DNA of 29,138 nucleotides from Planctomycetota bacterium (GTDB lineage Bacteria; Planctomycetota; DG-23; SLPQ01), in the NCBI GenBank assembly GCA_021160625.1, contig JAGHCE010000066.1, positions 1-29,138 on the forward strand. The letters are read 5' to 3'. Positions 2-23,912 of this stretch are shown here, piece after piece (the stretch's first letter is position 1; every line of letters starts with the position of its first letter). The notes under the pieces were generated by a model, which saw only the letters and a program-made list of their open reading frames with translations, did no database searches and had not been told where the DNA came from. The translations under genes and the position numbers were made by a program.

Positions 2-250
2 TACACCGCCGCCTCCGGCCGCGTTTGTGGCGTCCGTCGTCCTCTCGGTGCCGGTGTACGGGGCTCCTCGGTCTGCGTACCGGCCGGGTGCACCAGCACC
101 GGGAATCCTCCCGGGGCCCTTGGTGGGGCCTGCTGCTGCGGCCGGGAACATCTTCGCTGCCGCCTGCGCCATGCGCTCGATCTGCTGCGTGGTCTCCTCG
201 AGCAGGCGGGCAAGCCGGTCGTAAGTCTCAAAGATATCCGAATCCATCAT
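2..250 (-). CDS. Partial ORF running off the left edge (MMDSDIFETYDRLARLLEETTQQIERMAQAAAKMF...); position suggests a tail-associated protein
   Basis: Translated by hand. ATG at 250, AAGGGG SD-like sequence upstream, no stop before the window edge (so absent from the ORF track). Directly follows the tail tube gene on the same strand. Confidence 0.6.
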   Translation of the reverse strand, partial: MMDSDIFETYDRLARLLEETTQQIERMAQAAAKMFPAAAAGPTKGPGRIPGAGAPGRYADRGAPYTGTERTTDATNAAGGGGV

Positions 251-292
251 CGAAACCCCTTTGGTTCTCGTTTCCGGGTGTTATGTGCGGCG

Positions 293-670
293 CTACGAGC
301 CGTACGTGTACGCTCCCGTGGACTCGAAGTCGAACGTGAAGTTGATCTTGTCCCCCGCCGGCGTCACCCAGGAGAGGCGGGTCACGTTGGCGACGAGATC
401 GTACTTTTCGCCCGACGCCGTGTGGAGCACCAACGCCACCTGGTCGCCCGCCGAGATCGACGGCGAGGACTTGGGCCCCTTGGCGGGGTCGAAGTCGGCG
501 CTTACCGTCCCGCTTATGTATTTCTTGACCAGGATGGACTCCCTGCAACCGCCCGAGCCGGTGCTGGTCGTCTCGGCCCAGTCGGCGCTCTCCCGGGCCT
601 GCCAGCCGGTCACGTCAAGCCTCGTGCTGCCGACTTCAACGTATCCGCCGTTGCCGCTCTGGTATGCCAT
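293..670 (-). CDS. Short phage tail tube (major tail) protein, TP901-1/GTA-like
   Basis: 125 aa with the motif AETTSTGSGGCRESILVKKYISGTV, resembling the E-T-T-x-x-x-S-x-G-W/F-R-E pattern of siphoviral tail tubes. Strong SD GGGAGGTG. Position after the tail terminator. No sheath gene seen. Confidence 0.7.
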   Translation of the reverse strand: MAYQSGNGGYVEVGSTRLDVTGWQARESADWAETTSTGSGGCRESILVKKYISGTVSADFDPAKGPKSSPSISAGDQVALVLHTASGEKYDLVANVTRLSWVTPAGDKINFTFDFESTGAYTYGS

Positions 671-730
671 TTGGAAACACCTCCCACTGGTAGTTTTCCA
701 CGGCCGCTGACGGCGTGGATGCGTTTTCGT

Positions 731-1339
731 TTACGTGGTTGTCGTGGTCGTCGCGGCCGTGGTGGTGGTCGTTGCCGCCGACGCGACCGACTCGCCGATC
801 ACGATTATCCGGTAGGTCGCCTGGTTGGAGGCGTCCTTGTTTTCGAGCCTGAGGACGTCGGCGGTTCCCGATGTCACCGTCCAGCCGACGTCCTGCCCCT
901 GGACCGCCGCCGCAAATCCGCCGGGTGAAACCTCCACGGTGTCGGCCGAGTCCCCGAAGAACCAGTCAAAGGCGTTCGTGCCCGCCCCGTCGCTGCCGCC
1001 TCCGACCTCGATGACCGATTGGCCCGCGCCGGCCTGGGCCGTGGTGTTGGAGATGAGCACCGCATGAACCCTGTCGAAGAGGGCATCGTCTCCCCAGTAG
1101 TCCTTCGGATCATTTGTGCCCGTACCGGCGAGGTCGATTGTCACCGTCGCTCCCGCCGCCAGCGTCCCCTCGTCCTGCCACAAGAGGTCCGAGCTCTTAG
1201 AGGCCGCCGAGGAATCAACGGCGAAGCTGAATACCTTCCCGAGGGACACCGTCCCGTTCGCCAGGTCGAAGCTTTTTGTGGCCGTTACCGATGCCTCGGC
1301 CTTCACGCTTCCGCTCAAAGTCATCTGCGTGCTGCCCAT
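731..1339 (-). CDS. Hypothetical virion structural protein with a C-terminal poly-Thr tail
   Basis: 202 aa, rich in G/A/T/S/D, looks beta-rich. Double SD (CAGGAG...AAGGAG). Ends SAATTTTTAATTTTTT. Lies within the tail genes. Confidence 0.7.
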   Translation of the reverse strand: MGSTQMTLSGSVKAEASVTATKSFDLANGTVSLGKVFSFAVDSSAASKSSDLLWQDEGTLAAGATVTIDLAGTGTNDPKDYWGDDALFDRVHAVLISNTTAQAGAGQSVIEVGGGSDGAGTNAFDWFFGDSADTVEVSPGGFAAAVQGQDVGWTVTSGTADVLRLENKDASNQATYRIIVIGESVASAATTTTTAATTTTTT

Positions 1340-1414
1340 TTGTGCTCTCTCCTTTTCTCCTGCAAATCACGCCTTTGCCGAACGTCGTTTTCGGGCGTAG
1401 GCGCTGCCGTTTTT

Positions 1415-1834
1415 TCAGTCGCCGGGGTCCCTCTGGACCATAAACTCCAGGTCGACGACGCCTCGCCAGACCTCCCGGCCCTCGCCGTTGGTGTCGGAGG
1501 CAAGGCGAAGGCCGTCGGCGGCCTTGGCCACCTGGATCACCGTGCCGCTTTCAAGGACGGGGGCACTCGCCGCGAAGAGGCGCTCGACGGCTCCCAGGGC
1601 CTCGGCCGAGTCTACGGCGCCGGTCGAATACGCCTCGAAGCGCACCGTCACGCGCTCCAGGGCGGCGCCGCCGGTGTCCCGTGAGAGCGTGCGCGCACTG
1701 CGCCGGCTCCACACGATGTAGGGCATCAAGGCGGCCTGCGCCGCGCGCCCGGCGTAGATGCCGCCGGCGGCGCGCGAGCTGACCTGGACGCTTGCGTGAA
1801 GAGAGGTATGTATAGCCTTTAGTAATGCTTTCAT
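1415..1834 (-). CDS. Tail terminator/tail completion protein (SPP1 gp17/DUF3168-like)
   Basis: About 139 aa from ATG 1834 (MKALLKAIH...). Pattern IYAGRA...MPYIVW...VRFEAYS...WRGVVDLEF. Synteny after head closure. The ORF-track start at 1909 overlaps the upstream gene. Confidence 0.65.
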   Translation of the reverse strand: MKALLKAIHTSLHASVQVSSRAAGGIYAGRAAQAALMPYIVWSRRSARTLSRDTGGAALERVTVRFEAYSTGAVDSAEALGAVERLFAASAPVLESGTVIQVAKAADGLRLASDTNGEGREVWRGVVDLEFMVQRDPGD

Positions 1835-1838
1835 ACGC

Positions 1839-2180
1839 CTACTGCTCCCGGCAGTCGGCCCTCCAGAGCCTGTCCAGTTCGCCCGCGTTCGAAACGCCGC
1901 CGACGACAAGAAAGCGCCTGGAGAACCTCAACCTGTCGCCCGGGCAAAGTCCCGGGTCGCTCGCGAAATAAACCGAATGCGTTACGCGCATATTGCGTTT
2001 TCCGTAGGTCTCGATCGTTTCAGCCTTTGCCGGCTGCACCCATGCGGGGACCGCCTGCCGGACGGTATTCCAGGTAGTGCGCCGCCCGCCGGCTGCGTCC
2101 TCGGTCGAGATTGCCCGCTCGACGTCGACGCTGTGGCCGCTTCGGGCCACGAGCGCCGCTATGTTGGTCAATGTACCCAT
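1839..2180 (-). CDS. Head closure/stopper protein (SPP1 gp16-like)
   Basis: 113 aa from ATG 2180, coupled by TGATG to the adaptor stop. Pattern EDAAGGRRTTW...VPAWVQP...THSVYF...PGDRL. The first 230 aa of the 343-aa track ORF are a spurious extension. Confidence 0.75.
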   Translation of the reverse strand: MGTLTNIAALVARSGHSVDVERAISTEDAAGGRRTTWNTVRQAVPAWVQPAKAETIETYGKRNMRVTHSVYFASDPGLCPGDRLRFSRRFLVVGGVSNAGELDRLWRADCREQ

Positions 2181-2758
2181 CACACCCTCACGTTTCGATA
2201 AGGGGCCAGAAGCCGCCTGACGACGGCGGGCAGTTCCATCCGGCCTGTCGGTTCGAAGCTGCGGCTGTAGTTGCCGAGTTTCTCCCCGGTGACGCCGCCT
2301 TCCGGCGATGCGTTTGCCCAGAGCCAGGCGGCCAGCTCGGCGGTGGCCTCCTGGACCGGCTGCGGTATGGCCGCAAAGCCGGCCGTGTAGGCGGCCTTCA
2401 CGTTGTGGAAACCCGCCGGGAAGTGGTGGTAGGCCGTAGCGGCGGCGCTCTTGAAACAAATCTCGCCCGTGGAGGCGTCCACGTCGAACATCTCCCCGGA
2501 GATTTCCACCTCGCCGCCGCCGGTCTCGATGATCCACACGGCCGACAGCGCGGTTACGGGGAAGTTGTCGAGAAACATCCGGTCTTCGCCGCCGCCGTCG
2601 TGGTATTCCGCCGTGTACGCGGTTTCGGCGAACGTGCGCTTGCAGTAGCTCTCGACTGCGGCGCTTGCCGCTGCCACGAGGCTCGCCAGGTACGCTGCGT
2701 CCGCATTCGCCAGCGCCGGTATTTCCCGCGCCCGCTCGGTTGTGATAAGGTCGCTCAC
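2180..2758 (-). CDS. Head-tail adaptor/connector protein (gp6/gp15-like)
   Basis: 192 aa. LVAAASAAVESYCKRTF, YTAGFAAIPQPVQEA and RLLAPYR are typical adaptor motifs. GTG start overlaps the upstream stop (GTGA). Confidence 0.85.
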   Translation of the reverse strand: MSDLITTERAREIPALANADAAYLASLVAAASAAVESYCKRTFAETAYTAEYHDGGGEDRMFLDNFPVTALSAVWIIETGGGEVEISGEMFDVDASTGEICFKSAAATAYHHFPAGFHNVKAAYTAGFAAIPQPVQEATAELAAWLWANASPEGGVTGEKLGNYSRSFEPTGRMELPAVVRRLLAPYRNVRV

Positions 2759-3024
2759 CGCCTCTTCTCCTCCAAATGCCTCTCCACCCGCTCCAGTATG
2801 ACCCTGGTTGCACGGACCTCGGCCTTGATCTCGGCCAGGTCGTCGGACTGCTTACGGACGGCGAGCTCACAGTTGTCGATGCGCTGCGAGCCGGCTCCTA
2901 TCGCGCTGGTGTTGGCCCGCACGTCGCCGACCGTTCCAACCCAGCCCAGGAGGACCGCGCCGAGTACGAGCGTCGAAACCCCGACGCCGATCTTTTGAAG
3001 AGTGGTGCCGTCCGCGTTGTTCAT
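2755..3024 (-). CDS. Small single-pass membrane protein with a C-terminal coiled coil (holin/XhlA-like architecture)
   Basis: 89 aa from ATG 3024 with an AAGGA SD. Hydrophobic stretch IGVGVSTLVLGAVLLGWVGTVG followed by heptad-like LAEIKAEVRATRVILERVE. Function unverified. Confidence 0.6.
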   Translation of the reverse strand: MNNADGTTLQKIGVGVSTLVLGAVLLGWVGTVGDVRANTSAIGAGSQRIDNCELAVRKQSDDLAEIKAEVRATRVILERVERHLEEKRR

Positions 3025-3056
3025 CGTTATCCTTTTCCCTTTCCACACCCCGTGGG

Positions 3057-3095
3057 GGGCGGGGGCGCAGCTGGTGTTTGCGCGCGCCCCCGCCC
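3057..3095 (-). terminator. 12-bp GC stem-loop after the major capsid gene (attenuator or mRNA-stabilising hairpin)
   Basis: GGGCGGGGGCGC (3057-3068) pairs perfectly with GCGCCCCCGCCC (3084-3095). No U-tract, so not a canonical intrinsic terminator. Confidence 0.45.
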
Positions 3096-3142
3096 GTCGT
3101 CCTGCCGCCGCACGAGGTGAAACGGCTTGTACTGCCGGCTTG

Positions 3143-4369
3143 CTATGAGCCCGAGGTGGTCGTGGTAACGGCCGAGCGCGCCCCCAGCGTCACAAAGGGG
3201 CTAAGCGTCGACGTCGAGTACTTGGGCGTCAGCGCCGCCGGCCACCACGGCTGCCCGTCGTAGCGAAGCGTGAAGCGGAAGGCCGTCTGGTCGTAGTCGA
3301 ACCTGAGATGAATCGACTGCGCCACCTGCAGTCCGCGCGCCTTTGTGCCCACGAGGTACTGTGAGAAGTCGGCCAGGATGATGTCGCCCTTGTCGCCGAG
3401 GGTCTGGCACTTTTTCGTCAGGATGAGCGGGCGGCCCATCAGGGTCCCGTAGGGCGCGTCGGCCGCCGCGTGGGCCGGCAGGTAGACCGGAACGCCGGCG
3501 CTGCCGACCGCCTGGGTCATCGTCGCCAGCGGCGGGAAGGTGTCGGGGTTGGCCAGCCACACCGCCTTTGCGGCGCAGCGCGGATGCAGCCTCGACCACA
3601 TCTTCACGATGTTTTCCCAGAGGATCGTCTCATCAGCCTGCTCCGATTCCTTGTCGAGGGTGATGGTGCAGGGGGCGTTTATGATCCCCAGCGGCATACC
3701 CGTACCGGTGCCGTTTACGTAGTCGTCGTCCTCCTGGAAGGAAATCGCCTCTGAGAACATCGCCGTCAGAAGCGGCTCCATCGAGATGGGCGAGTCTTCC
3801 AGGAGCTCGCTCGAGACGTAGACGAGCCCCGTGACCTTGTTGAGCGAGAGCTCCACCTGGCCGAAGGTCGGGTTCGAGGCGCTTATCTGGGAAGCCTCGC
3901 TTGCCCGGTAGATGACGACACCTCCGTAGACGCTGGAAACCTGCGAGGTCTCGTTGACGAAGGGGATCTTCACGGAGTTGGTCGCCATCGGGATGACCGT
4001 GGCGCGCGGGCGGACGATCGCCGCGTCGAGCGAGTTCTTCAGCAGCGTGTTCCTGAACTCCTCCGGTACGAGGAATCCCCCCTGCGAATCGTCGCCCTCC
4101 TGCATATGGCCGGCGGTCTTGGCCGACCACGCGGCCAGCTCCTTCGATGTCCCCGCGCCGGCTACCGACGCCCTTGCAACGTCACGGGCAAAGTGCGCGA
4201 AGCTCTTGAAGCCGCCGCTCTCGTCGTCGTCGCTTCGTTCGGCGACGGACGTCACAGGGGCACCGGTGCCGGAGTCGCCGAGGTTCTTGACCGCAGCCTC
4301 CACGGTTTCGCGCACCGTTTCGCCGAGTGCGGCCTTGACCGCCTGCTGGATATCTTCGGGTACGAACAT
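3143..4369 (-). CDS. Major capsid protein, HK97 fold
   Basis: 408 aa from ATG 4369 with an AAGGAGG SD. Motifs GGFLVPEEF, VSSELLEDS, NGTGTGMPLGI, LMGRP, ADFSQY and FDYDQTAFRFTLRYDG. Ends AVTTTTSGS. Confidence 0.95.
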   Translation of the reverse strand: MFVPEDIQQAVKAALGETVRETVEAAVKNLGDSGTGAPVTSVAERSDDDESGGFKSFAHFARDVARASVAGAGTSKELAAWSAKTAGHMQEGDDSQGGFLVPEEFRNTLLKNSLDAAIVRPRATVIPMATNSVKIPFVNETSQVSSVYGGVVIYRASEASQISASNPTFGQVELSLNKVTGLVYVSSELLEDSPISMEPLLTAMFSEAISFQEDDDYVNGTGTGMPLGIINAPCTITLDKESEQADETILWENIVKMWSRLHPRCAAKAVWLANPDTFPPLATMTQAVGSAGVPVYLPAHAAADAPYGTLMGRPLILTKKCQTLGDKGDIILADFSQYLVGTKARGLQVAQSIHLRFDYDQTAFRFTLRYDGQPWWPAALTPKYSTSTLSPFVTLGARSAVTTTTSGS

Positions 4370-4472
4370 TCTTCCTGCCTCCTTAGTGAGTTTTGTTTTC
4401 AACCATCGCCTCGGCCCTGCCGCCTCCGGATTGCAAACCCGCAGTCCTGGCGTCTCCGGGTCGAGCGTTTTC

Positions 4473-5270
4473 TTAGACTCTCCCGCGCCTGCGGTCGAGT
4501 TCGTCGCTGACCATCTTTGCAATATCCACTGCCGCCGCCGCCTGCCGGATGACCCGGCGCGTGACCGGATCGGTGCGCACCCTTGCCGGGAGCGACGCCT
4601 TCCCCGTGCGGCTAAGCATCGCAGCCGGCATCTCCTTGACCACGACAAGCGCCTCGGGGTTAGACTGCACCGGTGCCACCGCATATTCGAGCGCCAGCCA
4701 CCTGCGAATGACGGCGTGAACCCCCGTCAGGGCCGGGCGCTTTTCGAGCTCGTCGGTCTCGGGCGGTGAAACCTCAAGCGGCAGAAATCCTATGGATTTT
4801 CCCGGCAGGTCGCCGGACTTGACGAAATGCCACACCGCGTCGGGGAACCACTGGCCCTGCCAGTCGCCGGGCCTCTCGGTGTACCTGGTCTTGGCAAGCC
4901 ACCCGTTTACCTCGGCGTCGCGGTAACGCTTCACCCACAGCGCCCGGCCCACGGGCAGTTCGTCGTAGCGGTGTGCGAAGGTGACGATGGGGTTTTTCAA
5001 AAACTGCGACCAGTCGCCGCCGGCCGGCAGCATCACCTCGGAGTCGCGGTCCACGCAGTCGGTCGTGACGAGCGAGACGTCCGCGCGCTCGCCGTCCTTT
5101 ATCTCAAGCGACGCGGCCGCCGCGGCTACCCGTGTGAAGCCCATCTCCCGGCATTCTCTCGGCAGCCCCTTCCATATCCGCTCGACCTCCTTAGCGACGG
5201 CCGACTTCATCGGAAACCCGAACGGCCCCTCGGCGTCGCCGTAGGCCTTCTGGCTGGCGTATTTACCCAT
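4473..5270 (-). CDS. Prohead (capsid maturation) protease, HK97-type
   Basis: 265 aa. VDRDSEVM, NPIVTFAH (His), GKSIGF (Ser) and LEYAVAPVQSNPEA motifs. Lies between portal and capsid. Confidence 0.85.
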   Translation of the reverse strand: MGKYASQKAYGDAEGPFGFPMKSAVAKEVERIWKGLPRECREMGFTRVAAAAASLEIKDGERADVSLVTTDCVDRDSEVMLPAGGDWSQFLKNPIVTFAHRYDELPVGRALWVKRYRDAEVNGWLAKTRYTERPGDWQGQWFPDAVWHFVKSGDLPGKSIGFLPLEVSPPETDELEKRPALTGVHAVIRRWLALEYAVAPVQSNPEALVVVKEMPAAMLSRTGKASLPARVRTDPVTRRVIRQAAAAVDIAKMVSDELDRRRGRV

Positions 5271-6615
5271 TGCGTTTCTCCTTGCCGGTCGCTTCGGCGC
5301 CTGTTTCCGGACGAGTTGCGGCGGACTTGAGCGGTTCGCGGCCGATTTCCCGCCTGGCTTCGTTTATTGTTATGACGCCGGTCTCGAGGTGTATCTGACG
5401 CTGTCTCAAGGCCATCTCTCTGTCCTCGGGCACGGGGTTGTCAAACGCCACGAACAGCCTCTCGTCAAAGAGCGGACACAGCCTCTGCGAGAGGCGCTGC
5501 TCCAGGCGGCGGCACCTCGGCAGGATCGCGTTTCTCGCCAGCTGGTAGTGGCCGGCCTCGGCGTTCGCGCGGTTGACGTCCTTTGCCTGCAGCAGGCTCA
5601 TCGGCACCCCGAAGGCGTTTGCGATGTCCTCCTTGGTAAGTCGATGCAGCAGGGCGTTTTGCATATCCTTCGGTGGGAAGGTGAGAGGTTTCACGTCCAC
5701 CTCGTCGCTTATCACGAGGACCCCGCCCGACGAGCCCCTTCTGAATTTCCTGCGGAACCGGCGTTCGAGCCTTTGCGCCTCGGCTTGGCCCAGCCCCCCG
5801 TACTCTCCCTTGGCCGAGACGATGACGTCCGGCCGCGCACGGTTTTCCAGGATGGCCGCGGCGTTGGCCCTTTCCTTTTCTTCGAGCGCCACCGCCTCGT
5901 AGGCGGCCCTCAGCGGCGACCAGCCTTCGTGGTAGGGGTTCCTCAGGTTCGGCATATGAAAGGGGAGTACCTCGTCGGCCGAAAGACGCATCGTGGCCGC
6001 GCCGGTGTAATACTCCCAGGACTGCAGCATGCCGCCGGCGTTTCGCTTTGCCCGGACGTACTGCGGCTGCAGAACCCATATTGCGCTGACGATGCCCAGC
6101 CGGTTTCTCGGCAGCCACCAGTAGGCCGAGCCGACGATCTCCATATAGAGACAGGTAAGTTCGATGAGCGAAAACCCGTCCAGTTCGTCATTGACCCTCG
6201 TCAAGAGGTCAAGCAGCGGATGGTCTGTGACCTCTTCGACGTCGCCGGCCCTTGCCAGCCGCTTTCCGGCCACGGCCTTCGACTGAAGCCAGGTGCGGTC
6301 GGCGGCCTCAAGCGGCCTCGTTGGGCACTTCGGGCGGGCCTGTGTGTGCCTCGTTTCCACGTAGAGCCTCAGCCCCACGGCGGCCACCCCCTGCGCGCAG
6401 AGATTCGCGCAGGCGTAGGCCGTGCCTCGGTAGGACCGCACGAGATCGTCAGGGGAGGGCCCTCGCCGGCCACCCCACACGTCAAGAGACGCCCAGTCGC
6501 CGCGCTCGCGGCCAAGATTGGTAGACCCTGCGTCCTTGGTCCGGCCCCTTCCGGCGATCCACAGGCCGAGTTTTTCCCGCCAGGGCGCTGGGCCCCGCCA
6601 CGTCTTAGTCCTCAT
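5263..6615 (-). CDS. Phage portal protein, HK97-like
   Basis: 450 aa. AYACANLCA, HPLLDLL, GWSPL, IANAFGVP, NRANAE and GVITINEARREIG motifs. Confidence 0.93.
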   Translation of the reverse strand: MRTKTWRGPAPWREKLGLWIAGRGRTKDAGSTNLGRERGDWASLDVWGGRRGPSPDDLVRSYRGTAYACANLCAQGVAAVGLRLYVETRHTQARPKCPTRPLEAADRTWLQSKAVAGKRLARAGDVEEVTDHPLLDLLTRVNDELDGFSLIELTCLYMEIVGSAYWWLPRNRLGIVSAIWVLQPQYVRAKRNAGGMLQSWEYYTGAATMRLSADEVLPFHMPNLRNPYHEGWSPLRAAYEAVALEEKERANAAAILENRARPDVIVSAKGEYGGLGQAEAQRLERRFRRKFRRGSSGGVLVISDEVDVKPLTFPPKDMQNALLHRLTKEDIANAFGVPMSLLQAKDVNRANAEAGHYQLARNAILPRCRRLEQRLSQRLCPLFDERLFVAFDNPVPEDREMALRQRQIHLETGVITINEARREIGREPLKSAATRPETGAEATGKEKRNG

Positions 6616-6817
6616 CCAGCTCTCCCGCTATCACTGTCCAGATTTCAGGGTTGTCCGCCGCGCACCAGGGCTTTTCGCCCCTGCCGCTTTCCTGCCTCGC
6701 CTCTTCTGGCCGCAGTGGGGCCTCATCAGGCTCCTGCGGCAGGGACGAGGCGTTTGGCGCAGAGCTTTCGGGCGCCTCTTCGAGCGTGTCGTGTTCGAGG
6801 TTCCCCGGCTTGCTCAT
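6605..6817 (-). CDS. Small acidic, probably disordered protein between terminase and portal
   Basis: 70 aa. ATG coupled to the terL stop (ATGA) and 3' end overlapping the portal start. E/P/S-rich with a KPWCAADNPEIW motif. Confidence 0.55.
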   Translation of the reverse strand: MSKPGNLEHDTLEEAPESSAPNASSLPQEPDEAPLRPEEARQESGRGEKPWCAADNPEIWTVIAGELDED

Positions 6818-8001
6818 ACCGCCACCTTTCCCCTGTCGACGCCCATCACGAGGTATCTCAGCGCGTCGCAGGCGTGGTTGAACTCGTCAAGCGGCGTCTC
6901 GGTCGCCTTGTCGTCGGGGTACCTGTAGGCGCCCAGCTCCGCGCAAAGGGCCGTGCAGCGTTTTGAAATGAGGAGGGTGCCCGCATCGAGGCGCGAGTTG
7001 ACCGCGTTTATGCCGGTGATAATGTCGTTGGTCGCAGAGCGTACGTTGTGGCCGGCGCGCCTTAGCTCCGCGATGGAATGCGGCTGGGACGGGTCGGCGA
7101 ACCACACGTGGCCGCCAGGCAGTGCGCGCGAGTGGTCCCTCAGAAGCGTTCTCGTCCTGTAACGCTCGTAGTGGATGTAGAGAACCTCGCGAACGTCCCC
7201 GTCCGCATAGACGTTGCCGCCGAGGGCCGCAAAGGGGTTCGTCCAGCCGAAGTCGATTCCCCCGACAAGCCTGCCCGCCGGCGCCTCGAAGTGATTGACG
7301 AAAAACTTCCCGGCGTCCGGGTACACCAGCCCCTCGGCCGCCGCCCATACCCCTTCGTAAAGCCGCGATCTCCGGTGCCCCGAAAGCTCGGACAGGCGGT
7401 CAAGATATTCGCTCGTGACGGCGGGGTTGTCCTCGTGCCGGCTGGCCAGGCGCGTCATCCGGCCCGCTTTTGCCCGCCGGATGAGCCAGTGGCCCGGATG
7501 CGACGGGTTGCAGTCGGCTATGGCCTGCTGGAAGGCGAGTACGTGGTTGCGAAGGCGCGTCAGGAGCATCTCCCAATCGTTCTCGGAAATCTCGGTTGCC
7601 TCGAAGACGACGATGACGTCATACTCGCTCGACATTATCCGCTCGACGTTGTCGAGGCCGCCGATGATGAGCTGTGAGCCGTTCGGGTAGCGGTACGAGT
7701 GCCTCCCCGATCGCTTCGGTCCGAACTTAAGGCGTGACCCGGCGGGGAGCACCTTTTCCTCGAAGGTCGTCAGCACGCTCTCGGTCATCGAGGTGCGTGT
7801 CTTTCTGACCAGGAGCGCCCGCATACCGGGTACCTCCTGCGCGAGGAGGTGAACCTTTTCGAGGCAGGCCCGCGTCTTGCCGGTTCCCGCCGGGCCGTCG
7901 ATGAGGACCTCGAAGTCACGGCAGTAAAAGAGCGCCTTAGCCGCGCCGTGCGGCTGGTAGGGGCTCGAGTGCGCCGGAATGTCAGGAAACGTCGTCGTCA
8001 T
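6814..8001 (-). CDS. terL: Terminase large subunit
   Basis: 395 aa. Walker A GPAGTGKT, Walker B-like VIVVFEA, and nuclease acidic residues in GIDFG, FADPS and NHACDALRY. Confidence 0.93.
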   Translation of the reverse strand: MTTTFPDIPAHSSPYQPHGAAKALFYCRDFEVLIDGPAGTGKTRACLEKVHLLAQEVPGMRALLVRKTRTSMTESVLTTFEEKVLPAGSRLKFGPKRSGRHSYRYPNGSQLIIGGLDNVERIMSSEYDVIVVFEATEISENDWEMLLTRLRNHVLAFQQAIADCNPSHPGHWLIRRAKAGRMTRLASRHEDNPAVTSEYLDRLSELSGHRRSRLYEGVWAAAEGLVYPDAGKFFVNHFEAPAGRLVGGIDFGWTNPFAALGGNVYADGDVREVLYIHYERYRTRTLLRDHSRALPGGHVWFADPSQPHSIAELRRAGHNVRSATNDIITGINAVNSRLDAGTLLISKRCTALCAELGAYRYPDDKATETPLDEFNHACDALRYLVMGVDRGKVAV

Positions 8002-8401
8002 TGGCTTTGCCTGCCACCTTTTCCACGTTTACATTGACGTATGTTTTCAACCGCTCGTCCGGAGCGTCCGGCTGCTCCCGGCCGCTTTTCGGTTCCCAGC
8101 CCCTGTCGAACCGCTCGATGAGGAGCTTCGCGTAGGCTTGGAATGGCTTCCTTTCCTCGCCGCAGGCCGCCGCGAAGACCCTTCCCCACAGCCGGCCCAT
8201 ACGAATCGCGAAAAAACGTTCCCATTCCTTCTGCCACCAGTTGCGAAAGCCCGCGGTCTCGAACCACTTGTAGTACGTGCGCCTGACGATGCCGATCTCG
8301 CCGGCCATTTTGGTTACCTGGTAGTCCCACGCATGCTCCATGGCGTAGCGCAGTGCTCGGCGTTGCTTTTGCGTGGGCTGCCAGTTCTTGCGTTTTGCCA
8401 A
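7982..8401 (-). CDS. Probable terminase small subunit (N-terminal helix-turn-helix)
   Basis: 139 aa with a TTG start and GGAGG upstream. HTH-like VTKMAGEIGIVRRTYYKW. Overlaps the terL start by 20 nt. Confidence 0.7.
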   Translation of the reverse strand: MAKRKNWQPTQKQRRALRYAMEHAWDYQVTKMAGEIGIVRRTYYKWFETAGFRNWWQKEWERFFAIRMGRLWGRVFAAACGEERKPFQAYAKLLIERFDRGWEPKSGREQPDAPDERLKTYVNVNVEKVAGKANDDDVS

Positions 8402-8729
8402 GTTGCACGCAGCCTCCTGCCTGTAGAGTGAAGCGGGCGCCGGCGGTCCCGGCCTTTGGTGGGTTTTGTTTGCCGCCCATTGCCCGCGCCGCGGCAGGCA
8501 ATCGACCTTGCCGATGTGCGCCCGCAGCCTTCACCCCTTAGGCTGAAGGTAACGTTTCAGCAGACGGCGCAGTGGCGGCGTGTGGCGGCCTGAGCCGAAA
8601 GCGGCGCAGCGCGATCCGGTGCGAAGGGAATGTTGTGGTATGACGCAAGTCGGTAGGACTATTGAGGTTGCACCACGCCCGGCCTGTGTGTGGCCTGGTG
8701 CGGCGGGCGAATTGCGATTTTTTCAAATT

Positions 8730-8750
8730 TGCCGGTTTTTTCTCCCGGCA
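8730..8750 (-). terminator. Possible terminator hairpin after the radical SAM gene
   Basis: TGCCGG-N9-CCGGCA stem about 55 nt after the stop codon. Only a weak U-tract (AAATTT). Confidence 0.3.
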
Positions 8751-8804
8751 GGGTAACCTTCAGCGCACTTGCACTTGAACGATGGAAATAGAATATCCCC
8801 TTTT

Positions 8805-10307
8805 TCAGGGGGCGATGTAGTCCTCGAAGTATTTGCGGAAGTGGTGACCGTAGGCGGCAAAGCCCAGCGCAAGCGAAAGAAGAGCGGGCCGCTTGAAAAG
8901 CGTCCAGAACAGCAGGTTCCAATACTGCCGGCGTTCCTTTCCTATGATTCCGATGCCGATTGAGACCTTTACAAGTGCAATCAGACGTCCGATCGCTCGG
9001 CGAAACCTCCGTTCTCTTTTCCTCTTGTGTCGAACCGGCTTGAACTCTCTTAGAAAGGCTTTCACGCGGTTGTAGAAGGGTTGTGGCGAGTAGATTCCCG
9101 CGAGCACGTTTTTGTAGCCGCTGATGAGGGTCTCATAGCTCATCTTCGGAACAAAGTTCATCGAGAGATCGGTGTTGTTTCCGTTGTGGTACCCCAGCAG
9201 CCGATTTTCCTCTTTGAGTCGCTGGTAGAGCCTCGTGTTGCGCGGTGCGTTCAGCAGTCCGACCATCGCACTGACGATCCCCGATTTCTGAATAAACGTG
9301 GTCAGCCTGTCGAACACCGACGAGCGATCGCTGTCAAAGCCGAGTATGAACCCGGCGGTCACCTGGAGCCCGGTCTGCTGGATTCGCTTGACACACGCCA
9401 GCATATCACGGTTGCGGTTTTGGATCTTGCCGCACTCGCTCAGCGCGTCGTCGTCGGTCGTCTCGATGCCGACAAACACCGAGTCGAACCCGGCGTCGAC
9501 CATCATTTGCATAAGCTCGGCGTCGTCGGACAGGTCTATCGACGCCTCCGTGCCGAGAGCGAATGGATGCCCCCGCTTTTCCATCCACTCGATCATCGCG
9601 GGGAGCGTTTTCTGCTTCAGTTTTTTTCTGTGACCGATGAAGTTGTCGTCAACGAAAAAGACATCTCCCCGCCATCCGTGGGTATACAGATTTTCCAGCT
9701 CGGCAACAATCTGTTTGCTGCTTTTGGTTCGGACCTTTTTTCCGAAGAGTACGGAGATGTCGCAGAATTCGCAATCGTACGGGCAACCCCGCGAATACTG
9801 GATGTTCATACTGGCGTATTTGCGCATATTCAACAGGTCCCACTTGGGGGCAGGGGTGTTTTCTATGCTGATGAACTTGTCTGAAGTATAGAGCCGAGCG
9901 GCCTGCCCCTTTTCAAAATCCGCCAGGAACTGCGGAAGCGTCACCTCGGCTTCATTGAGCACGAGATGGTCCACGTCTGCGAACTCTTCGGGGATGGCGG
10001 TAAAGAGCGGCCCCCCCGCGACTGTTCTGACACCTGCCTCCAGGCACCGAGCGACCACTTCCCTGGCCGATTCCTTCTGGATGGACATTGCGCTTATCAG
10101 GACGAGGTCGGCCCAATTGAGATCCTTTTTTTTCAGACGTTGGACGTTCATATCCACCAGCTTCTTGTTCCAACCTTCCGGCAACATCGCCGCCACCGTC
10201 AACAGCCCCAGTGGCGGCTGGGTAGCCTTTTTCGATATGAACTTGAGCGCGTGCTTGAAGCCCCAGAATGTGTCGGGATATTCCGGATATACCAGTAATA
10301 GGTTCAT
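8805..10307 (-). CDS. Cobalamin-binding radical SAM protein (DUF4070/HpnP-like family)
   Basis: 500 aa. N-terminal B12-binding region (YPEYPDTFW...PPLGLLTVAA, SAMSIQ, GGP), a CPYDCEFC CxxxCxxC motif, FFVDDNF and GFILGFD. Confidence 0.88.
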   Translation of the reverse strand: MNLLLVYPEYPDTFWGFKHALKFISKKATQPPLGLLTVAAMLPEGWNKKLVDMNVQRLKKKDLNWADLVLISAMSIQKESAREVVARCLEAGVRTVAGGPLFTAIPEEFADVDHLVLNEAEVTLPQFLADFEKGQAARLYTSDKFISIENTPAPKWDLLNMRKYASMNIQYSRGCPYDCEFCDISVLFGKKVRTKSSKQIVAELENLYTHGWRGDVFFVDDNFIGHRKKLKQKTLPAMIEWMEKRGHPFALGTEASIDLSDDAELMQMMVDAGFDSVFVGIETTDDDALSECGKIQNRNRDMLACVKRIQQTGLQVTAGFILGFDSDRSSVFDRLTTFIQKSGIVSAMVGLLNAPRNTRLYQRLKEENRLLGYHNGNNTDLSMNFVPKMSYETLISGYKNVLAGIYSPQPFYNRVKAFLREFKPVRHKRKRERRFRRAIGRLIALVKVSIGIGIIGKERRQYWNLLFWTLFKRPALLSLALGFAAYGHHFRKYFEDYIAP

Positions 10308-10541
10308 CTTGTTTTCCCTTAGGTGTAGATCGTTTCGGTCAGGAGGCTCACGAGAGTTTCCGTTGCGATGATTCCCGCCAGGAGGCGGTCCTTGTCGGCG
10401 AAATTGAAATACGCCCTCACTACCACCCTAATTTTCTCGACTGGTCCTGCCCAGTCAAGTGGGTTTTCCGGGAGAAACTCACCGGCGGGGCAACGTCCGG
10501 TGGCCAGGGCGTAACTGTCCCAAGAAATGTGGGGATGTTTT

Positions 10542-20280: not shown

Positions 20281-20292
20281 ACATCCAAACCG

Positions 20293-20540
20293 GGAGGGCT
20301 TCGCCCCCCTTTTGCTAAGGAGCCCGGCACGTTGTGCCGGGAATCCACTGACCTTCCGAAAGCTTATGCGGCACTGGTGGCTTTGTAGGGCGCGCCTTGG
20401 CGCGCGCGGAGGGCTTCGCCCCCTTTTTGCTACGGGGGCCACGGGCGTTGCCCGAGGCAATCAACCGGCCTTCCGAAAGCTTATGCGGCATTGGTGGCTT
20501 TGTAGGGCGCGCCTTGGCGCACGGGAGGGCGTCACCCCCC
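20293..20540. repeat. REP-like mosaic, cluster 5: tandem 115/116-bp units
   Basis: Units start at 20293 and 20408, with a partial unit at 20524. Each unit is module A + linker K + GTAGGGCGCGCCTTGGCGC. Confidence 0.9.
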
Positions 20541-23781: not shown

Positions 23782-23839
23782 AGAGCCGCCTGCATATGAA
23801 AACGGATGAAACTACAGCAACCAAGGAATAAAAAAAGAG

Positions 23840-23912
23840 AGCCCACGGTGGGATTCGAACCCACAACCTGCGCATTACGAATGCGCCGCTCTACCGACTG
23901 AGCTACATGGGC
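23840..23912 (-). tRNA. tRNA-Thr(CGT), CCA not encoded
   Basis: Acceptor stem GCCCATG/CGTGGGC, D-arm TAGCTCAGTCGGTAGAGC, anticodon arm GCGCA-TTCGTAA-TGCGC, T-loop GGTTCGAATCC. Followed by a T-run. Confidence 0.96.

What the first reader, a model, noticed from the sequence alone, without database searches (positions are those of the whole stretch)
2..8401. Intact packaging-head-tail cluster with no phage control modules: candidate GTA-like element in a probable planctomycete
Seen: the order terS, terL, x, portal, protease, capsid, x, adaptor, stopper, tail terminator, x, short tail tube. Genes are translationally coupled, catalytic motifs are intact and there are no visible frameshifts or internal stops. 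Only about 400 bp of non-coding DNA separate terS from a host metabolic gene, and GC by eye is similar to the host genes. Known: in lambdoid and HK97-type prophages the integrase, immunity, replication and lysis modules lie upstream of terS, whereas the Rhodobacter RcGTA structural cluster starts at terS in essentially this order and is controlled in trans. Inference: this is a host-domesticated particle-producing locus. GTAs are characterised mainly in Alphaproteobacteria and a few other lineages, so a planctomycete one would be notable. Counter-evidence: the block has none of the REP mosaics seen in the host DNA, the left end is not visible, and a chimeric assembly cannot be excluded.
Basis: partly seen in the sequence, partly recalled or inferred. 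Interest (0 to 1): 0.82.

Follow-up and report, generated by a model that had tools for sequence, protein, structure and literature searches.

The report
Host-kept phage particle genes, stub tail
A vent-dwelling planctomycete carries about 13 kb of phage head and tail genes with none of the genes a phage needs to integrate, replicate or lie dormant; related bacteria keep the set intact, so it is probably a host-owned, gene-transfer-agent-like particle maker, though nobody has seen the particle.

Summary
Window 2-8401 (minus strand) holds terS, terL, a 70-aa gene, portal, prohead-protease-like gene, HK97 capsid, adaptor, head closure, tail terminator, a 202-aa gene and a tail tube, all intact and mostly overlapping.

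The left edge is only a contig end. Two outside contigs bridge it to contig C80 of the same MAG. There the cluster continues: a small 115-122-aa protein, a 260-aa protein, three fibre-like proteins, a glycosyltransferase and a membrane protein. Host genes follow. The total is about 12.9 kb.

No integrase, att repeat, lysogeny, replication or endolysin gene was found inside it. The tail chaperones and the roughly 590-aa tape measure of its phage relatives are replaced by the small protein.

The same layout lies beside host genes in:
- a sister species (91% nt, same junction; dN/dS 0.15-0.19; dS like the host genes);
- another genus of the family (TerL 73% against ribosomal S1 79%);
- two further metagenome lineages, though L054 shows the tail layout only, without flanks.

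Their TerL proteins form one clade next to real phages.

Against a classical GTA, TerS keeps its DNA-binding HTH, and packaging and transfer are untested. The verdict is a domesticated GTA-like locus, a new variant of a known kind. This scan has noted other planctomycete candidates on unrelated DNA.

The parts
8402..8765 (-). Conserved non-coding leader upstream of terS, with two GTTAC boxes (near 8757 and 8553). It marks the boundary of the element on the host radical-SAM side.
   Evidence: About 95% identical to the sister species over roughly 250 nt, more than synonymous sites of nearby genes (dS 0.2-0.3). Two same-strand GTTAC boxes also lie upstream of terS in G001 and L080. No Rfam match.
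7982..8401 (-). Small terminase (139 aa) with an N-terminal helix-turn-helix.
   Evidence: phrog_24579 E 1.6e-8; PF13022, 29.5 bits against a cut-off of 27.9. dN/dS 0.19 against L045.
6814..8001 (-). Large terminase (395 aa), with ATPase Walker A and an RNaseH-like nuclease part.
   Evidence: PF04466 E 1e-13; phrog_2 E 1e-31. Walker A at residue 36. dN/dS 0.15. One clade with the other host-flanked copies.
6605..6817 (-). Conserved 70-aa ORF between terL and portal, function unknown.
   Evidence: A 70-aa ORF at the same place in L045, L080 and L082, 42-48% identical in L080 and L082.
5263..6615 (-). Portal protein (450 aa).
   Evidence: PF04860 E 3e-51. dN/dS 0.17.
4473..5270 (-). Prohead protease/scaffold-like protein (265 aa).
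   Evidence: It sits between portal and capsid. Weak PHROG hits. Invariant His100 and a GKSIGF serine in five homologues. No Pfam, NCBIfam or PDB sequence hit, and the AF2 model was unusable.
3143..4369 (-). HK97-fold major capsid protein (408 aa) with a Thr-rich C-terminal end.
   Evidence: PF05065 E 2e-50. 76-82% identical in the related elements and 53% in the phage-like L050.
2755..3048 (-). Conserved 97-aa ORF, function unknown.
   Evidence: Homologues at the same place in L080, L082 and L054. No family hit.
2180..2758 (-). Head-tail adaptor (192 aa).
   Evidence: phrog_442 E 5e-31. PF24163 on homologues.
1839..2183 (-). Head closure / head completion protein (114 aa).
   Evidence: PF05521 at its cut-off, E 3e-5.
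1415..1834 (-). Tail terminator / tail completion protein (about 139 aa; the longer 164-aa reading overlaps the previous gene by 71 nt).
   Evidence: PF11367 E 8e-9; phrog_176. Gene calls of 138-139 aa in relatives.
731..1339 (-). 202-aa virion protein of unknown role, with a poly-Thr C-terminal tail.
   Evidence: phrog_22694 E 7e-22. Viral neighbours in the Atlas. 46-76% identical in relatives.
293..670 (-). Tail tube protein (125 aa).
   Evidence: phrog_1407 E 9e-5. Atlas neighbours score 0.97, the named ones carrying Phage_tail_2. Always 125-126 aa in relatives.
2..250 (-). First 83 codons of the small coiled-coil protein (122 aa in L046, 115 aa in L049) that stands where relatives have tail chaperones and a tape measure. 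The contig ends inside it.
   Evidence: 100% identical to L046 over 69 aa. Family alignments A1 and A6. Position compared with L048, L050 and L082.

Best explanation
This is the head-and-neck two thirds of a chromosomally fixed, non-autonomous, phage-derived particle locus of about 12.9 kb. It descends from a siphovirus of planctomycetes.

Shown:
- One co-directional, tightly packed late operon runs terS, terL, portal, protease-like, HK97 capsid, connector proteins, tube, small protein, a 260-aa protein in the distal-tail position, three Thr/Cys-rich fibre-like proteins, glycosyltransferase and a two-TM membrane protein.
- Host genes lie on both sides.
- No integrase, att repeat, repressor, replication or endolysin gene was found inside.
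- It has been inherited with the chromosome and kept intact by purifying selection in at least two genera of one planctomycete family.

Inferred:
- A signal acting on the conserved leader upstream of terS switches the operon on in a fraction of cells.
- Proheads assemble and mature. TerS/TerL fill them by the headful from chromosomal DNA that was never excised or amplified.
- The connector, a few tube rings and the fibre complex form a stub tail whose length is set by the 80-120-aa protein left in place of the tape measure (about 12-18 nm at 1.5 A per residue).
- Released particles deliver host DNA to kin, which makes the system GTA-like.
- Because TerS keeps its HTH, packaging may start at a preferred site and not at random.
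For: Anatomy:
- Genes are identified.
- The left end is bridged to contig C80 by L046 (97.9% identical to window 2-939) and by L049 (100% identical to C80 1-380).
- Host GH4 and S9 peptidase genes follow on C80.
- No tape-measure family and no second portal were found in the MAG. The three integrase-family hits lie on other contigs.
- There are no att-like repeats beyond chance.

The whole layout is seen uninterrupted in host context on 43-kb and 37-kb JGI contigs.

Inheritance:
- The sister species has the same radical-SAM/terS junction at about 91% nt identity.
- Runs from two other studies carry a 91-94% identical variant across the junction at equal depth.
- In another genus (G001) terS follows a ZIP transporter.
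- The tail-side neighbour, an S9 peptidase, is shared with that lineage.
- TerL is 73% and the capsid 78% identical, against 79% for ribosomal S1.
- The TerL of host-flanked copies is monophyletic, support 98/92.

Selection: dN/dS is 0.15-0.19 with dS 0.19-0.30, against 0.17-0.42 in flanking host genes.

Reduction:
- Phage-like relatives L050 and L048 have chaperones and a 580-595-aa tape measure at the spot where this family has 78-122 aa.
- L082 keeps the chaperones but has the small protein.
- There is no spare DNA for gene remnants there: the gaps are 42 and 8 nt.
Against: - No particle, packaged DNA or transcript has been observed.
- TerS retains an HTH domain, whereas known GTA small terminases are reported to lack a DNA-binding domain (PMC11841831).
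- The terS-side flank differs between the three lineages seen, so movement cannot be excluded.
- The element was found in only 1 other genome of 400 sampled in the phylum and in 2 of 3 genera of its family. The third genome is incomplete and even lacks rpsA.
- In this MAG the locus is split over two contigs that may come from slightly different strains.
- No endolysin was found.
- Homology of the small protein to tape measures is weak: hhalign E 0.028, and a library-wide profile search hit no long tape measure.
- TerL is 63% identical to that of a real phage.
Confidence: 0.6

Rival explanations
1. Pac-specific in-situ packaging element, a 'lateral transduction without excision' platform. TerS binds a site in or near the conserved leader or terS. 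Headfuls then run in one direction through the element into the neighbouring chromosome, so the particle moves a particular chromosomal region, and the element itself, and not random DNA.
For: - TerS keeps its HTH above the Pfam cut-off.
- The 250-nt leader is more conserved than synonymous sites.
- GTTAC boxes recur in the leaders of two genera.
- There is no excision machinery.
Against: - No pac site has been identified.
- The capsid capacity is unknown.
- The conserved leader may simply be a promoter or operator.
- Nothing shows the direction of packaging.
Confidence: 0.18
2. Defective prophage remnant with no present function. On this reading the structural half of an old prophage has not yet decayed.
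For: - It lacks essential phage functions: integrase, replication, lysogeny, endolysin, tape measure and chaperones.
- Gene content varies between lineages: a 162-aa gene, the chaperones and the fibre genes come and go.
- Its distribution is narrow.
Against: - About 20 ORFs are intact in every lineage seen, across host divergence down to 79% identity of ribosomal S1.
- dN/dS is 0.15-0.19, as in neighbouring housekeeping genes.
- Losses are clean, with no pseudogene debris and with overlapping start and stop codons kept.
- The upstream leader is conserved.
Confidence: 0.1
3. Mobile helper-dependent element (satellite-like), or a phage whose integration and replication genes lie elsewhere. It would make its own heads and borrow missing tail or life-cycle functions from a co-resident phage.
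For: - There are three different terS-side flanks in related lineages.
- Tail-length machinery is missing, which a helper could supply.
- Close TerL relatives are real phages in similar habitats.
- Contigs break inside the element in several assemblies, as happens with variable or multi-copy DNA.
Against: - There is no integrase, excisionase, primase or repressor within 10 kb on the terS side or about 5 kb on the tail side, and no att repeats.
- Depth equals that of host DNA.
- The divergence of its genes tracks that of host genes.
- It has its own tube, distal-tail-position and fibre genes, unlike capsid-forming islands.
- No other portal or tape measure is present in the MAG.
Confidence: 0.1
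4. Assembly or binning artefact: a phage contig wrongly joined to host DNA.
For: - The MAG is fragmented: 273 contigs, 79.5% complete.
- GC is 3-4 points above the host's.
Against: - The terS/host junction is crossed by contigs of four runs from three studies, at equal depth on both sides in the related-strain contigs of two of them.
- It is also crossed by an independent NCBI MAG contig of 42.9 kb.
- The equivalent junction in another genus is on 18-kb, 37-kb and 43-kb contigs.
Confidence: 0.02

Closest known systems
RcGTA-type gene transfer agents of Alphaproteobacteria (Rhodobacter capsulatus RcGTA, Caulobacter CcGTA)
   Same: - A head-tail cluster of about 13-15 kb that starts at terS, in HK97-type order.
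- No integrase, replication or lysogeny genes.
- Inherited with the host and under purifying selection.
- GC above the host's, here with GC2 0.50 against 0.42. PMC7360931 reports raised GC at first and second codon positions in RcGTA regions.
   Different: - No sign of common descent. The nearest TerL and capsid relatives are uncultured planctomycete-associated phages and, among isolates, actinobacterial phages at 34-44% identity.
- None of the RcGTA-specific distal-tail Pfam families was hit.
- RcGTA keeps a tape measure and chaperones, by my own knowledge; this element does not.
- TerS here keeps an HTH, while GTA TerS proteins are reported to lack one (PMC11841831).
- Function is unproven here.
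L050-type uncultured siphophages (Logan contig of 37.6 kb), with L048 and L047
   Same: Same gene order and homologous proteins from protease to glycosyltransferase: capsid 53%, tube 61%, 260-aa protein 49%, GT2 50%.
   Different: - The phage has tail chaperones (152 + 55 aa) and a 595-aa tape measure.
- Its fibre base is larger (372 aa).
- It has a methyltransferase and a long run of small early-type genes.
- The element has none of these and is flanked by host genes.
Capsid-forming phage-inducible chromosomal islands (cf-PICIs)
   Same: A small chromosomal element that encodes its own terminase, portal, protease, HK97 capsid and connector proteins.
   Different: By my own knowledge, cf-PICIs carry an integrase, regulators and a replication module, and have no tail genes. 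Here none of the first three was found, while tube, distal-tail-position and fibre genes are present.
PBSX-type defective prophages of Bacillus
   Same: A chromosomally fixed, non-infectious phage-derived particle locus that packages DNA. Relatives of the TerL are labelled 'PBSX family' by JGI.
   Different: By my own knowledge, PBSX is about 28 kb, is myovirus-like with a contractile tail, and keeps its repressor and lysis genes. The TerL label is only a family name. None of these features is seen here.
Other planctomycete GTA-like candidates noted by this scan (for example e1-5080486 in Pirellulales and e1-984694 in Phycisphaerae)
   Same: The same class of claim: integrase-less virion gene clusters inherited with the chromosome, some with stub tails.
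   Different: The capsid shares no look-alike stretch with any other window of the scan, so this is a separate family by sequence. It is confined to a small family and not spread over hundreds of species. Those notes were not checked here.

Membership tests
Gene transfer agent (functional class) | Virion structural and packaging genes in the chromosome, without integrase, excision, replication or lysogeny genes | tested here: met
   Both borders were reached. Host genes lie right of terS and after the last tail-side gene on C80. The same is seen on contiguous 37-43-kb contigs of the sister lineage and on L051. There are no att repeats. The integrase-family hits lie on other contigs.
Gene transfer agent (functional class) | Vertical inheritance with the host: the same locus in related species, with phylogeny tracking the host's | tested here: inconclusive
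   - Met for the sister species: same junction, about 91% nt, dS like the host genes.
- Met for the strains in two other studies.
- In another genus the tail-side neighbour (S9 peptidase) is shared but the terS-side neighbour is not.
- TerL of the host-flanked copies is monophyletic.
- Only three genomes of the family are held.
Gene transfer agent (functional class) | Purifying selection on the structural genes | tested here: met
   dN/dS is 0.19 for terS, 0.15 for terL and 0.17 for portal, against 0.05-0.22 for six flanking host genes. Only three element genes could be tested at unsaturated divergence.
Gene transfer agent (functional class) | Particles package host DNA without preference for their own genes, and capacity is below the size of the locus | not testable with these tools
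   This needs VLP DNA sequencing or electron microscopy. Capsid length (408 aa) is like that of phage relatives and says nothing on the T number.
Gene transfer agent (functional class) | Small terminase without a DNA-binding domain (reported for all known GTAs in PMC11841831) | tested here: not met
   PF13022 HTH_Tnp_1_2 matches residues 2-72 with 29.5 bits against a cut-off of 27.9. The G001 homologue scores 25.8 bits.
Gene transfer agent (functional class) | Expression under host control, with lysis functions for release | tested here: inconclusive
   - The upstream leader is conserved, with repeated GTTAC boxes, but no regulator has been identified.
- The last gene (140 aa) has a lipobox-like N-terminus and two hydrophobic segments, and could be holin-like.
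- No endolysin was found in the locus.
RcGTA-like GTAs (Rhodogtaviriformidae) | Homologues of the RcGTA-specific tail genes (g10 to g15 families), and descent shared with alphaproteobacterial GTAs | tested here: not met
   Pfam scans of all proteins of the locus gave no RcGTA-specific family. The only trace is a non-significant Phage_TAC_11 hit (E 0.42) on the L082 chaperone. The nearest relatives are planctomycete-associated phages. No direct alignment to RcGTA proteins was made.
Intact temperate HK97-type siphophage (prophage) | Tape measure with its chaperones, plus integrase, lysogeny, replication and lysis modules | tested here: not met
   - A protein of 78-122 aa stands where relatives have about 590 aa.
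- PF10145 is not found in the MAG.
- No life-cycle genes lie between the host flanks.
Capsid-forming PICI / phage satellite | Integrase, a regulator and a replication module; no tail genes; att sites | tested here: not met
   No such genes or repeats were found. Tube and fibre genes are present.

The most novel reading that the evidence does not exclude
A previously undescribed, independently domesticated particle system of Planctomycetota. Its siphovirus tail has been cut down to a stub by reducing the tape measure to about 100 residues, with the chaperones then lost in some lineages. Its HTH-bearing TerS starts packaging in situ at a conserved chromosomal site, so that it ferries a defined chromosomal neighbourhood between cells. 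That would be a mode intermediate between a GTA and lateral transduction.
Probability: 0.2. Interest if true: 0.85.

Novelty: new variant of a known kind. Interest (0 to 1): 0.68.

Why it matters
Gene transfer agents are proven in only a handful of lineages, and none has been described in Planctomycetota. The literature search found none, though this scan has noted other candidates.

This locus adds an independent case with clear signs of host ownership: both borders are mapped, it diverges together with host genes, and it is under purifying selection.

It also shows a stepwise reduction series, from a phage with a 595-aa tape measure, to an element with chaperones plus a 119-aa remnant, to an element with the remnant alone. 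That makes the evolution of tail length and of domestication directly testable.

The retained DNA-binding TerS and the conserved leader give a concrete handle on whether such particles package at random or from a fixed site.

Tried and rejected
- K-mer overlap of the window's left end with other contigs of the MAG: none.
- C144, C38 and C122 as possible continuations: host-like or unrelated.
- Exact look-up of the window's tube protein: not on record.
- Viral-contig scan with the 202-aa protein: nothing.
- L045 as a genome handle: not held.
- AlphaFold model of the 260-aa protein: pLDDT 61, and Foldseek against the PDB gave no match below E 0.3, so its assignment as a distal tail protein rests on position only.
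- AlphaFold model of the protease-like protein: pLDDT 38, unusable and not searched. PDB sequence searches with the protein and with its profile gave nothing.
- PDB sequence search with the tube protein: nothing.
- NCBIfam on ten proteins of the locus: nothing.
- Rfam on the leader: nothing, and no sigma-70-type promoter match.
- Homology of the small protein to tape measures: BLASTP nothing. hhalign gave E 0.49 against L050 and 0.028 against the last 36 residues of L048. A profile search of 1.84 billion proteins found only six small family members and two weak hits, and no long tape measure. 'Vestigial tape measure' therefore stays an inference from position and a shared C-terminal ...[IV]G[QD] ending.
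- Synteny of the terS-side flank between lineages: none found.
- att-like direct or inverted repeats at the borders: none beyond chance.

Full report
**1. What the window is**

The window is the whole of contig C133, the longest contig of a 2.30-Mb MAG with 273 contigs, 79.5% complete. The runs that hold it are hydrothermal-vent metagenomes. Named relatives of its ribosomal protein S1 are Planctomycetota MAGs. Right of position 8805 lie ordinary core genes: a B12-binding radical SAM enzyme, a phosphoribosyltransferase, a sigma-70 factor, rpsA, ispH, an acyltransferase, cmk and glnA.

**2.

On the minus strand of 2-8401 lie, in order:
- terS
- terL
- a 70-aa ORF
- portal
- a protease-like gene
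- an HK97-type capsid gene
- a 97-aa ORF
- adaptor
- head closure
- tail terminator
- a 202-aa ORF
- a 125-aa tube gene

Six of the gene junctions overlap by 4-20 nt. TerL has its Walker A motif. No ORF is broken, and each has the length of its homologues elsewhere.

- GC is higher than the host's: 64.9% against 61.5% for the genome, with second-codon-position GC of 0.50 against 0.42. Tetranucleotide usage is only mildly atypical, z = 1.4.
- The 'protease' has no family match. It is supported by its position, weak PHROG hits and an invariant His plus a GKSIGF serine motif.

**3. The left end**

The window stops inside a gene because the contig stops there. A Logan contig from another study (L046, 97.9% identical to window 2-939) and an ENA contig (L049) run on through the following genes:
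- the rest of that gene, a small protein of 122 or 115 aa;
- a 260-aa gene;
- the start of a further gene.

The last 380 nt of L049 are 100% identical to the start of contig C80 of the same MAG. L049 is only 87% identical to the window at its other end, so the bin mixes close strains. A 9-codon length difference in the small gene coincides with the contig break.

On C80 the operon continues with these genes:
- a fibre-like protein of about 216 aa with a long Thr-rich linker and a Cys-rich end;
- two proteins of about 155 aa;
- a family-2 glycosyltransferase of 490 aa;
- a 140-aa protein with a lipobox-like N-terminus and two hydrophobic segments.

After the operon comes a low-GC islet (49-54%) with two genes on the other strand, one DUF3800 and one with a PHROG 'replication protein' hit. 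Then come host GH4 and S9-peptidase genes. From the terS start to the last operon gene is 8401 + 969 + 3555 = about 12.9 kb.

**4. What is missing**

- Nothing between the two host flanks resembles an integrase, repressor, replication protein or endolysin.
- The MAG has no tape-measure family match and no second portal. Its three integrase-family matches are on other contigs.
- The borders share no repeat longer than chance gives.

The most unusual gap is in the tail. In phage-like relatives, the tube gene is followed by two chaperone genes and a 580-595-aa tape measure, and then by the homologue of the 260-aa gene (L048 and L050). Here, and in every close relative, the tube gene is followed after 42 nt by one small coiled-coil protein of 78-122 aa, and 8 nt later by the 260-aa gene.

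The small proteins form one family with a conserved C-terminal third. That third aligns weakly with the very end of the L048 tape measure (E 0.028). The small proteins and the L050 tape measure share a terminal ...[IV]G[QD]. A profile search of 1.84 billion proteins found no long tape measure. 'Vestigial tape measure' is therefore an inference from position, not a demonstrated homology.

One relative, L082, still has both chaperone genes (43% identical to those of L050, E 3e-43) but already has a 119-aa small protein. This looks like an intermediate step in the reduction.

**5. Relatives and inheritance**

- *Sister species.* An NCBI MAG contig of 42.9 kb (L045) is 88-91% identical in nucleotides. 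It has the same radical-SAM/terS junction and again breaks off inside the portal gene.
- *Related strains.* Contigs of two runs from other studies carry a 91-94% identical variant across the same junction. Depth is the same on the element side and the host side, 13.3 against 12.7 and 8.25 against 7.6. This rules out a chimera and argues against an amplified or induced phage.
- *Another genus of the same family (G001).* TerL is 73% identical, and terS directly follows a ZIP transporter and other host genes.
- *Contiguous view of that lineage.* JGI contigs of 43 and 37 kb show the whole layout in one piece, from host genes through terS to the glycosyltransferase.
- *Tail side of that lineage.* An ENA contig (L051) shows the tail-side end followed by host genes. 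These include an S9 peptidase 53-70% identical to, and oriented like, the one on C80.
- *Further lineages.* L054 and L082 have the same layout.

The terS-side neighbours differ between the three lineages.

In a sample of 400 genomes of the phylum, only G001 had a close homologue of the 260-aa protein. The third genome of the family lacks the element but is incomplete and also lacks rpsA.

**6. Selection and descent**

Between the window and L045:

| Genes | dN/dS | dS |
|---|---|---|
| terS, terL, portal | 0.19, 0.15, 0.17 | 0.19-0.30 |
| Six flanking host genes | 0.05-0.22 | 0.17-0.42 |

The element has therefore diverged as much as its neighbours, under similar constraint. Between the two genera, ribosomal S1 is 79% identical, TerL 73%, capsid 78%, portal 65% and tube 59%.

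In a TerL tree of 49 proteins, all copies known to be host-flanked fall in one clade, together with three metagenomic proteins of unknown context (support 98/92). Neighbouring clades contain real phages:
- L083 (63% identical) has some thirty small co-directional genes upstream of terL.
- L084 has a 1053-aa portal.

The nearest cultured phages are distant: Streptomyces phage Dagobah (capsid 44%) and Thermobifida phage P1312 (TerL 36.5%).

**7. Reading**

About twenty intact, tightly packed virion genes are flanked by host genes, diverge in step with them and are kept under purifying selection across genera. Tail genes have been removed cleanly. This is what a host-maintained (domesticated) element looks like, not a decaying prophage or a live one.

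The mechanism is inferred from the families involved. TerS and TerL fill HK97-type proheads through the portal. Adaptor, head-closure and terminator proteins join a very short tube. The small protein, at about 1.5 A per residue as for lambda-type tape measures (established knowledge), would allow only about 12-18 nm. The 260-aa protein and the Thr/Cys-rich proteins form the tip and fibres, perhaps glycosylated by the conserved glycosyltransferase.

The roughly 360-nt leader is about 95% conserved between the sister species over 250 nt, more than synonymous sites. It carries two GTTAC boxes that recur upstream of terS in the other genus. It is the likely control region, a pac region, or both.

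**8. Limits**

GTA function is not shown. TerS retains an HTH domain above the Pfam cut-off, whereas a review states that known GTA small terminases lack a DNA-binding domain (PMC11841831). For that reason I keep in-situ, site-started packaging as a serious variant.

The differing terS-side flanks, the narrow distribution, the fragmentary MAGs and the absence of an endolysin also temper the claim.

I place 0.6 on a host-kept GTA-like particle locus, 0.18 on the site-specific packaging variant, 0.1 on a functionless remnant, 0.1 on a helper-dependent mobile element and 0.02 on an artefact.

**9. Novelty**

I found no paper describing a GTA in Planctomycetota. Earlier notes of this scan list about twenty planctomycete candidates on other genomes. 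The capsid here matches none of the scan's windows.

The kind of system is therefore known. This is an independent family with an unusual, stepwise-reduced tail and a DNA-binding TerS: a new variant of a known kind.

Noticed in passing
window 8402-8765 (minus strand); also L045:9209-9600, L067:14691-14921, L080:9325-9606: The non-coding leader before terS is about 95% identical between sister species over roughly 250 nt, against dS 0.2-0.3 in nearby genes. It holds exactly two same-strand GTTAC boxes. These are 204 and 194 nt apart in G000 and L045, and about 135 nt apart in G001 and L080. This is a candidate operator, promoter or pac region. There is no Rfam hit.
   Followed up: partly
window 3143-3180 and 731-790; C80 (L055) 250-420 and 1230-1260; L047:1270-1800: Thr-rich tracts end the capsid and the 202-aa protein and form long linkers in the fibre-like proteins. 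A family-2 glycosyltransferase is conserved in the same operon, also in the phage-like L050. This may mean O-glycosylated virion proteins.
   Followed up: no
C80 (L055) 3600-5000: A low-GC islet (49-54%) between the element and host genes has two minus-strand genes: 173 aa (phrog_16230 'replication protein', E 3e-23) and 235 aa (DUF3800, phrog_3732). It is not present at the equivalent place in L051, so it is probably a separate small insertion.
   Followed up: partly
window 2-250; L046:693-1061; L049:150-497: The small protein differs between co-occurring strains by a 9-codon length change and is 82% identical. The contig break at the window's left end falls exactly there. Contigs of L045 and G001 also break inside the element, in the portal gene.
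   Followed up: partly
L045:5134-7709 against window 10320-10488: The sister species has extra genes (Metallophos/AP_endonuc_2 and TetR) between the phosphoribosyltransferase and the radical-SAM gene. Its radical-SAM gene is called as two ORFs (253 + 235 aa). A contig of run X3 has 713 other letters at the same spot. This intergenic spot is variable.
   Followed up: no
L045:6776-6956 and many contigs of the MAG; window 16770, 18664, 18937, 20290-20500, 23978: A repeat unit of about 69 nt (REP-like) matches well over a hundred contigs of the MAG at 80-94% identity, and also lies in the sister species' intergenic DNA. None lies inside the phage-derived block.
   Followed up: no
L082:499-1860: The flank of the L082 copy carries a reverse-transcriptase gene (RVT_1, 290 aa) next to an ankyrin-repeat gene, and an ECF-type sigma plus a zinc-ribbon pair a few genes before terS.
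   Followed up: no
window 23839-23912: The only tRNA gene of the window is tRNA-Thr(CGT), 15 kb from the element. It is not at either border.
   Followed up: yes
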